Shown one piece after another: positions 15,518-16,159 of a stretch of 19,156 nt of DNA; positions within the stretch are counted from its first letter, which is position 1, and every line of letters begins with the position of its first letter. Source of the DNA: a virus. Taxonomy: Duplodnaviria > Heunggongvirae > Uroviricota > Caudoviricetes. The notes under the pieces were generated by a model. It did no database searches. It saw only the letters and a list, made by a program, of their open reading frames with translations, and was not told where the DNA came from. Location of the stretch: positions 1-19,156 of the IMG/VR virus record IMGVR_UViG_2548876862_000001; one strand, given 5' to 3'. Both the position numbers and the translations under genes were made by a program.

Positions 15518-16159
15518 TCAAAGCAACGGGATTTCAAGGTAAACTGCGGTTGCCAAAATACTAACATCTTCATTTCTAACAAGAATATTAGGATACATTG
15601 GGTTTAGGGATACTAGGTTTGTCTCTATTTCACCAATGTAAACCTGTTTGAAGCTCAATATTTGCTCTTTATCCAATGATGCTATTACATAATCTTTGCT
15701 TTTAGCTTTTACTAGAGGGCTGAACGTGACAACCGATCCTCTGGGAAAGCTAATACCTGAACTTGTAGTCATAGCTTCACCTTCAATAGTCAATGCAAAT
15801 GCAGAGTCACCAACATTGTATATTGCCGGATGAAATCTAGACGATGAATGTTCACCTGTGTTTAGGTAATGCATAACTTCATCTAGTTTGAGGATTGGTA
15901 TTTGCTTTACCAGAACGTCAGGCATGACGTTTTTTGTTCCCGGCCCCTGGCCTTCACCTAGAGCTAACCACTCAGCCGTAGTACCTAATGCGTTGGCTAA
16001 TGCCTGCAATACACGAAGCCGTGGTTTAGCCTCACCACCCTCGTATGCAGCTATTTGACGTTGAACAACACCAGCTAATTTTGACAACTGCGCCTGCGTC
16101 ATACCCCTGGACTGTCTTGCCAGAGATACTCTTGATGGGAATTGATCGTCAAAATTCAT
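15518..16159 (-). CDS. Lambda-CI-like repressor: XRE-type HTH plus S24 LexA/CI-like C-terminal domain, with Ala at the catalytic-serine position
   Basis: N-terminal HTH (GMTQAQLSKLAGVVQRQIAAYEGGEAKP). C-terminal DSAFALTIEGEAMTT...SFKQV...SLNPMYPNI aligns by eye to lambda CI DSAFWLEVEGNSMTA...FTFKKL...QPLNPQYPMI. ATG at 16157-16159 on the minus strand. Confidence 0.85.
   Translation of the reverse strand: MNFDDQFPSRVSLARQSRGMTQAQLSKLAGVVQRQIAAYEGGEAKPRLRVLQALANALGTTAEWLALGEGQGPGTKNVMPDVLVKQIPILKLDEVMHYLNTGEHSSSRFHPAIYNVGDSAFALTIEGEAMTTSSGISFPRGSVVTFSPLVKAKSKDYVIASLDKEQILSFKQVYIGEIETNLVSLNPMYPNILVRNEDVSILATAVYLEIPLL

What the first reader, a model, noticed from the sequence alone, without database searches (positions are those of the whole stretch)
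15518..16159. CI-like repressor carrying Ala in place of the S24 catalytic serine
The C-terminal domain aligns residue by residue with lambda CI (EGNSMT against EGEAMT here; the conserved Lys region FTFKKL against LSFKQV; LNPQYPMI against LNPMYPNI). The nucleophilic Ser is replaced by Ala while the Lys is kept, and the linker lacks a canonical Ala-Gly scissile bond. That predicts a repressor that cannot be RecA-autocleaved, which fits a circuit derepressed by antirepressors rather than by SOS cleavage. It occupies the divergent position that Mnt holds in P22.
Basis: partly seen in the sequence, partly recalled or inferred. Interest (0 to 1): 0.65.

Follow-up and report, generated by a model that had tools for sequence, protein, structure and literature searches.

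The report
Dead-protease repressor guarding antirepressor genes
This gene encodes a lambda-CI-type repressor whose self-cleaving protease domain has lost its catalytic serine, and it most likely acts as the off-switch of a portable antirepressor gene cassette in a P22-like prophage, not as the phage's main immunity repressor.

Summary
ORF 15518-16159 (-) encodes a 213-aa HTH_3 + Peptidase_S24 protein. Ala129 sits where lambda CI has Ser149, Lys171 where it has Lys192, and Val95-Met96 where it has the Ala-Gly scissile bond. The allele is fixed in over 25 prophage contigs and phage JEP4, and the domain is under strong purifying selection.

The protein is not the target of an antirepressor circuit. 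In all 51 distinct relatives it lies about 99 bp from, and divergent to, a 57-aa ribbon-helix-helix gene followed by one or two antirepressor genes. This portable cassette occurs in P22-like, lambda-like and other prophages that carry their own primary repressor; in JEP4 that repressor is canonical and cleavable.

A recognition-helix residue co-varies perfectly with a base in a palindrome overlapping the -35 of the antirepressor promoter. This supports direct repression of that promoter, the role Mnt plays in P22.

Loss of catalysis is recurrent in the family: 20 of 51 lack Ser or Lys, and 50 of 51 lack Ala-Gly.

Verdict: a new variant of the P22 immI theme, carrying an S24 domain that no longer cleaves. 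Interest is moderate.

The parts
15518..16159 (-). CI-like repressor, 213 aa: HTH_3 (residues 14-65), linker, and an S24-like domain (108-206) with Ala129 at the nucleophile position, Lys171 kept, and Val95-Met96 in place of Ala-Gly
15773..15775 (-). GCT codon for Ala129, the position of lambda CI Ser149; the 81%-identical relative has TCT (Ser)
16181..16209 (+). Sigma-70 promoter-like site TTGACT-17-AATAAT (10 of 12 matches) pointing into the RHH/antirepressor operon; the TTGAC hexamer is at the same place in 44 of the 50 cassettes examined
16184..16196 (.). Candidate operator of the CI-like protein: the perfect 13-bp palindrome ACTCA-TAC-TGAGT, overlapping the -35 hexamer and spacer. Its third base co-varies across the family with recognition-helix residue 33.
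   Evidence: inference; no binding data
16259..16432 (+). 57-aa ribbon-helix-helix-like protein (phrog_10182, faint ParD-like Pfam match); Arc analogue and first gene of the operon
16440..16474 (.). Conserved hairpin between the RHH gene and the first antirepressor gene, with compensatory base changes across cassettes; terminator-like on the - strand (possible sar-like antisense RNA)
16506..17132 (+). Antirepressor 1 (Bro-N + P22_AR_C; phrog_245 anti-repressor Ant). The likely start is ATG 16506, not the TTG at 16401 listed by the ORF finder.
17221..17946 (+). Antirepressor 2 (phrog_1726 anti-repressor, E 5.5e-101; no Pfam hit). The likely start is Met18 of the listed ORF.
17965..17986 (.). 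Bidirectional terminator-like hairpin closing the antirepressor operon and the convergent mnt-like gene
17973..18230 (-). Mnt/Arc-family ribbon-helix-helix protein (about 85 aa from the Met used in the JEP4 annotation); the true Mnt homologue, next to the tailspike gene
14963..15457 (-). sieA superinfection-exclusion gene (95% nucleotide identity to P22), downstream of the CI-like gene, with its own promoter-like site at 15521-15493

Best explanation
The gene encodes a lambda-CI/434-type repressor whose C-terminal S24 domain is a catalytically dead homologue, probably kept as a dimerisation module. The protein is the constant regulator of a portable three-part cassette: CI-like gene, then about 99 bp of control region, then a divergent operon of a 57-aa ribbon-helix-helix protein plus one or two antirepressors. 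In this P22-like prophage the cassette fills the 'ant moron' between gene 16/sieA and the tailspike gene.

The most likely mechanism runs as follows.
1. A dimer binds a 13-bp palindrome (ACTCA-N3-TGAGT, 16184-16196) that overlaps the -35 hexamer of the strong promoter TTGACT-17-AATAAT.
2. This keeps the antirepressor operon silent in the lysogen, the job Mnt does in P22.
3. The small RHH protein is the Arc analogue.
4. Because the protein cannot self-cleave, the antirepressors are not released by the SOS response. They would be made only when the repressor is absent, for example just after infection.

Shown here: domain architecture, the Ala/Lys/Val-Met residues, the fold, the conserved synteny, the protein-DNA covariation and purifying selection. 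Inferred: DNA binding at that site, repression, dimerisation and timing of expression.
For: Residues and fold.

No Ala-Gly in the linker.

Synteny:
- In 7 of 7 database contigs and in all IMG/VR loci the gene is divergent from a 56-71-aa ORF of one family, at a near-constant spacing.
- The next ORF is an antirepressor. Of 49 scanned, 33 have Bro-N, 11 P22_AR_N, 17 P22_AR_C, 3 ANT, 2 KilA-N and 2 pRha.
- In the window both downstream proteins hit anti-repressor PHROGs.

The cassette is portable. It lies between tail genes of lambda-like prophages (L002, L009), in P22-like ant morons (window, L008, JEP4), next to an integrase (L005), and in a lambdoid prophage with its own CI/Cro/N (L004). JEP4 has a separate canonical C2 with SAG, GDSM and FKKL.

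Operator:
- The 13-mer starting at the fourth base of the -35 hexamer is palindromic (4 or 5 of 5) in 12 of 44 cassettes, against 2.4% of all 13-mers in these regions.
- Arg at recognition-helix position 33 goes with TTGACACA in 11 of 11 cassettes, and non-Arg with it in 0 of 40. There are at least 6 switches on the tree, and the flanking bases differ.

Constraint: dN = 0 and dS = 0.198 over the 102 codons of the S24 domain, between two Ala-bearing alleles.

No LexA box lies near the promoter.
Against: - There are no binding, expression or cleavage data.
- A single 5+5 palindrome in 100 bp is not above chance on its own. Only the family-wide enrichment and covariation carry weight.
- That covariation could partly reflect co-inheritance of the HTH-coding 5' end and the adjacent DNA, which lie 25-100 bp apart.
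- No convincing promoter for the CI-like gene itself was found. The best candidate is TGCACT-17-CATAAT, 8 of 12 matches, found by eye.
- A real Mnt homologue is also present, so the division of labour between the two repressors is unknown.
- 31 of 51 relatives keep both Ser and Lys, which hints at some retained catalytic role in part of the family.
Confidence: 0.7

Rival explanations
1. One reading: this is a non-cleavable immunity-type repressor that is itself inactivated by the neighbouring antirepressors, so the circuit is opened by antirepression instead of SOS cleavage.
For: The protein is non-cleavable by sequence. Antirepressor genes are adjacent. Non-cleavable repressors removed by antirepressors are known in Gifsy prophages (PMC3121763). 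A feedback loop in which Ant also binds this protein cannot be excluded.
Against: - The gene lies in the late-operon moron, not in an immunity region.
- The same cassette co-exists with complete primary immunity regions (JEP4 C2/cro/c1; L004 CI/Cro/N).
- The antirepressor genes vary freely between cassettes while the regulator stays constant. That fits a regulator of the ant genes better than a target of them.
- The recognition helix co-varies with the ant promoter's -35 region.
Confidence: 0.12
2. The protein has a regulatory role other than simple repression of the ant promoter. Examples are an activator or autoregulator of its own leftward transcript that also feeds sieA, or a co-regulator needed together with the RHH protein or Mnt.
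For: The CI-like gene and sieA are co-directional and 60 bp apart. CI-type proteins often activate their own promoter (established for lambda PRM). The conserved block AGTGAGATTATGAGT (16222-16236) could be a second site.
Against: sieA has its own promoter-like site and belongs to a different mosaic block: the P22 match covers 15302-15488 and the JEP4 match starts at 15455. The gene downstream of the CI-like gene differs in every other context. The only constant partners are the RHH and ant genes.
Confidence: 0.1
3. The protein is still removed by proteolysis after DNA damage, through another nucleophile, or in trans by a catalytically active S24 protein such as LexA or the phage C2.
For: Lys171 is retained, and Thr131, Thr132, Ser133 and Ser134 lie close to position 129. 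Intermolecular cleavage is known for UmuD (established knowledge).
Against: The GxSM motif is unambiguous and reads G-E-A-M. There is no Ala-Gly or Cys-Gly substrate site in the linker. The model puts a helix (92-101) where the cleavage loop should be. LexA S119A is cleavage-dead, and several PDB entries are of that mutant.
Confidence: 0.04
4. It is a decaying, functionless remnant of a once cleavable repressor.
For: Catalytic residues are lost repeatedly in the family.
Against: The ORF is intact. It is identical in 25 contigs and JEP4. dN/dS is about 0.01 overall and 0 in the S24 domain against an allele with dS of about 0.18-0.20. The HTH is nearly invariant across the family.
Confidence: 0.03

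Closest known systems
Phage P22 immI region (mnt, arc, sar, ant) in the 'ant moron' of P22-like phages (Villafane et al. 2008, PMC2629481)
   Same: - Same genomic slot, between gene 16/sieA and the tailspike gene.
- A maintenance-type repressor gene divergent from an operon that starts with a small ribbon-helix-helix protein and continues with antirepressor(s).
- A structured element between the small gene and ant, where P22 has sar.
- The repressor is not SOS-cleavable.
   Different: - The divergent repressor is a 213-aa HTH + S24-like protein, not the 83-aa ribbon-helix-helix Mnt.
- The 57-aa protein is not a Pfam Arc match.
- There are two antirepressors of other families.
- Rfam finds no sar.
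- The cassette also occurs outside P22-like phages.
- A separate Mnt homologue remains beside the tailspike gene.
Lambda CI / 434 CI / P22 C2 (Peptidase S24, LexA-like self-cleaving repressors)
   Same: HTH_3 N-terminal domain, flexible linker and S24-fold C-terminal domain. The closest solved structures are lambda CI. The general-base Lys is conserved, and the inferred short palindromic operator has the outer-AC...GT layout of 434 operators.
   Different: Ala replaces the Ser nucleophile and Val-Met replaces Ala-Gly. The gene is not in an immunity region with cro, and its apparent target is an antirepressor promoter.
LexA-controlled antirepressor modules (Gifsy gfoA/gftA, Lemire et al. 2011, PMC3121763; coliphage 186 tum and N15 antC from general knowledge)
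   Same: An antirepressor operon kept off by a LexA-superfamily repressor bound at its promoter. One relative (P0016/L004) still has Ala-Gly, Ser and Lys, so it could link antirepressor synthesis to SOS in the same way.
   Different: The repressor is phage-encoded and cassette-borne, not host LexA. No LexA box is present. The window's allele cannot be cleaved, so the SOS link is absent.
Engineered non-cleavable S24 mutants (LexA S119A, lambda CI K192A; PDB 1jhh, 1jhc, 2ho0)
   Same: The same substitution at the same position as LexA S119A, which folds normally and binds DNA but does not cleave.
   Different: It is natural, fixed and under purifying selection, and it comes with loss of the scissile bond.

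Membership tests
Peptidase S24 (LexA / lambda CI self-cleaving repressors) | S24 fold / match to Pfam PF00717 | tested here: met
   PF00717 E 1.3e-12, 47.9 bits against a cut-off of 23.3. Foldseek match to the lambda CI C-terminal domain: TM 0.84, rmsd 1.8 A.
Peptidase S24 (LexA / lambda CI self-cleaving repressors) | Serine nucleophile in the G-x-S-M motif (lambda Ser149, LexA Ser119) | tested here: not met
   The motif reads G127-E128-A129-M130. Ala129 aligns with Ser149 of lambda CI and with Ser of GDSM in JEP4 C2. The codon is GCT.
Peptidase S24 (LexA / lambda CI self-cleaving repressors) | Lysine general base (lambda Lys192, LexA Lys156) | tested here: met
   Lys171 in SFKQV aligns with Lys192 of TFKKL.
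Peptidase S24 (LexA / lambda CI self-cleaving repressors) | Ala-Gly (or Cys-Gly) scissile bond in the linker | tested here: not met
   Val95-Met96 lies opposite Ala-Gly. There is no [AC]G in residues 66-118.
Peptidase S24 (LexA / lambda CI self-cleaving repressors) | RecA*-stimulated or alkaline self-cleavage | not testable with these tools
   Needs purified protein or an in vivo blot.
Cro/CI-type HTH (HTH_3) operator-binding repressor | HTH_3 domain | tested here: met
   PF01381 E 9.3e-13. The 434 repressor N-domain matches at E 4e-06.
Cro/CI-type HTH (HTH_3) operator-binding repressor | Binding to a palindromic operator at the regulated promoter | tested here: inconclusive
   There is a palindrome at the -35, enriched across the family, and residue 33 co-varies with the half-site. 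No binding assay was possible.
P22 Mnt (immI maintenance repressor) | Ribbon-helix-helix (Arc/MetJ) fold, homology to Mnt | tested here: not met
   The protein is HTH + S24. The Arc-family match belongs to a different ORF, 17973-18311.
P22 Mnt (immI maintenance repressor) | Gene divergent from an arc-like/ant operon in the ant moron | tested here: met
   The layout in the window and JEP4 matches the P22 description in PMC2629481.
P22 Mnt (immI maintenance repressor) | Represses the ant promoter in lysogens | not testable with these tools
   Inferred only from synteny and covariation.
LexA-regulated antirepressor module (Gifsy / 186 / N15 type) | LexA box (CTGT-N8-ACAG) at the antirepressor promoter | tested here: not met
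   No match within 16160-16258. The five one-mismatch matches in the window lie elsewhere and are fewer than the chance expectation of 7.2.

The most novel reading that the evidence does not exclude
The window holds one example of an undescribed, widely spread 'type-2 immI' cassette of enterobacterial prophages. In it a CI/LexA-like repressor, an Arc-like 57-aa protein and a conserved hairpin (possibly a sar-like antisense RNA) together gate interchangeable antirepressors.

The ancestral regulator would have been SOS-cleavable; one relative still has Ala-Gly, Ser and Lys. On this reading the family is caught turning into a pseudo-protease, losing first the scissile bond and then, repeatedly, the catalytic dyad. 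Each loss would convert an SOS-triggered antirepressor release into a Mnt-like constitutive lock.
Probability: 0.45. Interest if true: 0.55.

Novelty: new variant of a known kind. Interest (0 to 1): 0.4.

Why it matters
Antirepressor cassettes decide whether a prophage, or its neighbours in a polylysogen, wakes up. Knowing what holds them off is needed to predict induction.

This cassette replaces P22's classic Mnt with a CI-type protein, and it is common in Salmonella and E. coli prophages. Database annotations call it 'repressor protein C2' or 'LexA family protein', which wrongly suggests a second SOS-cleavable immunity repressor.

The family also offers a natural series of S24 domains at different stages of catalytic loss. 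It provides a clean protein-DNA specificity pair (residue 33 against the third operator base) that could be tested directly.

The finding does not change any established principle. Non-catalytic S24 homologues and non-cleavable phage repressors are already known.

Tried and rejected
- **LexA box at the ant promoter.** None found, so host LexA control was dropped.
- **Rfam scan of 14900-18500.** No sar or other family; only three chance-level hits.
- **NCBIfam.** No specific family; only sub-threshold HTH models.
- **Promoter for the CI-like gene.** The consensus scan finds none in 16160-16258 on the - strand. A weak TGCACT-17-CATAAT was seen by eye and is not relied on.
- **The 13-bp palindrome taken alone.** Judged not above chance; kept only because of family-wide enrichment and covariation.
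- **Other repeated CTCA/TGAG boxes and the conserved block AGTGAGATTATGAGT (16222-16236).** These could not be assigned to the CI-like or the RHH protein, because both proteins change together in most comparisons.
- **RNAalifold on the hairpin.** It gave only a partial consensus because MAFFT mis-registers the inner stem. Only the outer stem was counted.
- **Literature searches**. No paper was found that describes a CI/S24-type regulator in the ant moron. The Kapi1 transcriptome paper concerns a standard mnt-arc-ant locus.
- **Sequencing error or pseudogene.** Rejected on the basis.

Full report
**What is in the sequence**

ORF 15518-16159 on the - strand encodes 213 aa. Pfam finds HTH_3 at residues 14-65 (E 9e-13) and Peptidase_S24 at residues 108-206 (E 1.3e-12).

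The best sequence matches among solved structures are lambda CI entries:
- EGEAMT aligns with EGNSMT. Counting along 3bdn places Ala129 on Ser149.
- SFKQV aligns with TFKKL, placing Lys171 on Lys192.
- LNPMYPNI aligns with LNPQYPMI.

An independent BLASTP against the canonical primary repressor of phage JEP4 gives the same register, and puts Val95-Met96 opposite that protein's Ala-Gly. No Ala-Gly or Cys-Gly exists anywhere in the linker. The Ala codon is GCT.

An AlphaFold model (pLDDT 86.5) superposes on the lambda CI C-terminal domain at TM 0.84 and rmsd 1.8 A. It predicts a helix (residues 92-101) where cleavable repressors have the cleavage loop.

**The allele is real and maintained**

The identical protein is encoded by phage JEP4 and by 25 IMG/VR contigs, and it heads an NCBI cluster of 62 sequences. 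Against a second Ala-bearing allele, the S24 domain shows dN = 0 and dS = 0.198 over 102 codons. The domain is therefore under strong constraint although it cannot be a protease. That fits its known second role in CI-type repressors, dimerisation (established knowledge; not tested here).

**Where it sits**

The window is the late region of a P22-like (Lederbergvirus) genome. The local order is:
- gene 16, 13099-14940 (+)
- sieA, 14963-15457 (-)
- the CI-like gene, 15518-16159 (-)
- 99 bp of control region
- a 57-aa ribbon-helix-helix-like gene, 16259-16432 (+)
- antirepressor 1, Bro-N + P22_AR_C, 16506-17132 (+)
- antirepressor 2, phrog_1726, 17221-17946 (+)
- a bidirectional terminator, 17965-17986
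- a true Mnt/Arc-family gene, 17973-18230 (-)
- the tailspike gene, from 18363

This is the variable 'ant moron' described by Villafane et al. (PMC2629481).

**The gene belongs to a portable cassette**

Seven database contigs and 72 IMG/VR loci carry relatives, giving 51 distinct proteins of 32-100% identity.
- In essentially all of them the gene lies about 99 bp from a divergent 56-71-aa ORF of a single family.
- That ORF is followed by one or two antirepressor genes. Of 49 first large ORFs, 33 have Bro-N, 11 P22_AR_N, 17 P22_AR_C, 3 ANT, 2 KilA-N and 2 pRha.
- The cassette occurs in P22-like ant morons, between tail genes of lambda-like prophages, beside an integrase, and at the end of a lambdoid prophage that has its own CI, Cro and N.
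- JEP4, which shares the cassette at 98.9% nucleotide identity, also has a complete immC region. Its C2-type repressor keeps SAG, GDSM and FKKL.

The CI-like protein is therefore a second repressor, tied to the antirepressor genes. It is not the phage's immunity repressor.

**How it most likely works**

The control region holds one strong promoter-like site, TTGACT-17-AATAAT (16181-16209), aimed at the RHH/antirepressor operon. A perfect 13-bp palindrome, ACTCA-TAC-TGAGT (16184-16196), starts at the fourth base of the -35 hexamer.

One such palindrome alone could be chance. Two family-wide results give it weight:
- At this fixed position, 12 of 44 cassettes have a 4/5 or 5/5 palindrome, against 2.4% of all 13-mers in these regions.
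- The recognition helix is almost invariant (V-x-RQIAAYE) except for residue 33. Arg33 goes with TTGACACA in 11 of 11 cassettes, and every other residue with ACTCA or ACATA in 40 of 40. There are at least six switches on the protein tree, and the flanking bases are unrelated.

This is the pattern expected if the helix reads that half-site. I therefore infer that the protein represses the antirepressor promoter by occluding its -35 region, the role Mnt has in P22. The 57-aa protein would be the Arc analogue.

One caveat applies. The HTH-coding end of the gene and the site are only 25-100 bp apart, so some of the association may be linkage.

No LexA box is present. With a non-cleavable repressor, the antirepressors would not be released by SOS.

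**The Ser-to-Ala change in context**

The dyad states among the 51 distinct proteins are:

| Residues at the Ser / Lys positions | Number of proteins |
|---|---|
| Ser / Lys | 31 |
| Ala / Lys | 6 |
| Ala / Arg | 8 |
| Ser / Arg | 3 |
| Ser / Met | 1 |
| Gly / Val | 1 |
| Gly / Arg | 1 |

- Parsimony on a neighbour-joining tree needs at least six changes at the Ser position and four at the Lys position.
- Only one protein (P0016/L004) has Ala-Gly at the lambda-aligned site, in the sequence THIMAG.
- Within the window's own clade, the 92%, 76% and 71% relatives have Ala and the 81% relative has Ser (TCT).

Catalytic decay is thus a family trait, with the scissile bond apparently lost first. This lowers the surprise of the single substitution, but it makes the family an interesting natural series.

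The non-cleavability prediction and the Mnt-position analogy stand. The suggestion that the protein is the repressor removed by antirepressors is not supported. It is better read as the repressor of the antirepressor genes, and a canonical cleavable primary repressor co-exists with the cassette in JEP4.

**Novelty**

My literature searches found the ant moron described as highly variable, with a remark that some versions must control ant differently from P22. They found no description of a CI/S24-type regulator there, nor of this cassette. PHROGs lists the 57-aa protein as of unknown function. Non-catalytic S24 homologues and non-cleavable repressors are known kinds. I rate this a new variant of a known kind, of moderate interest.

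Noticed in passing
window 16440-16474 (and the same place in 39 distinct cassettes, e.g. L002:5709-5763, L008:4675-4729): A conserved hairpin lies directly after the 57-aa gene's stop codon and about 30 nt before the first antirepressor start.
- The outer stem shows compensatory changes in 5 of 8 pairs (21 cells). No shuffle out of 500 reaches this, and slid controls are far lower.
- There is no G-U pair in 224 cells, so the stem would be equally good on either strand.
- The loop keeps a G-C-N-A-A-C-like motif.
- On the - strand the hairpin is followed by ACUAUUUUUAUU, which looks like the terminator of a sar-like antisense RNA covering the ant ribosome-binding site (fold z-score -5.5).
- Rfam has no match.
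   Followed up: partly
window 17973-18230 (-) and 18231-18362: A true Mnt/Arc-family gene (Pfam Arc, E 8e-15) sits convergent to the antirepressor operon and divergent from the tailspike gene. This is the arrangement of the ant-less phages L/ST64T and Sf101. The phage therefore carries both a Mnt homologue and the CI-like Mnt analogue. What the Mnt homologue controls here is unknown.
   Followed up: partly
window 16178-16189 (- strand mini-ORF ATG AGT CAA TGA): The reverse complement of the conserved -35 block (TTGACTCAT) reads as ATG AGT CAA. In many relatives this ATG is in frame with the gene, and gene callers add a false, non-conserved N-terminal extension (MSQ...), as in P0002, P0003, P0007 and P0016. 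In the window it stops after three codons. Conversely, the JEP4 record starts the gene too late: a TTG start gives 189 aa and cuts into the HTH.
   Followed up: yes
relatives P0012-P0021, L045-L069 (C-terminal 50-70 residues beyond window residue 213): Most of the 256-287-aa relatives carry an extra C-terminal tail, absent from the window's protein. It has a conserved heptad-like stretch (e.g. ERLSALENRLDEIMHLIR), possibly an added coiled-coil oligomerisation element.
   Followed up: no
window 15455-15500: A mosaic junction. The P22-like sieA block (95% identity) covers 15302-15488, and the JEP4-like cassette block (98.9%) begins at 15455. The two modules are therefore joined within about 35 bp, just downstream of the CI-like stop codon. 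JEP4 has the cassette without sieA.
   Followed up: partly
window 16222-16241: The block AGTGAGATTATGAGTTTTTC, just downstream of the predicted ant-operon transcription start, is conserved among cassettes that share the window-type 57-aa protein but have different CI-like proteins (L005, L036, L037, L042 keep AAAACTCATA on the other strand). It may be the operator of the RHH protein, or the -10 region (CATAAT) of the leftward promoter. This is not resolved.
   Followed up: partly
window 16401-16505 and 17170-17220: The mechanical ORF starts for the two antirepressor genes (TTG 16401, GTG 17170) are probably too far upstream. Family alignment and PHROG coverage point to ATG 16506 (MNIVAK...) and to Met18 at 17221 (MTLKNV...).
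   Followed up: partly
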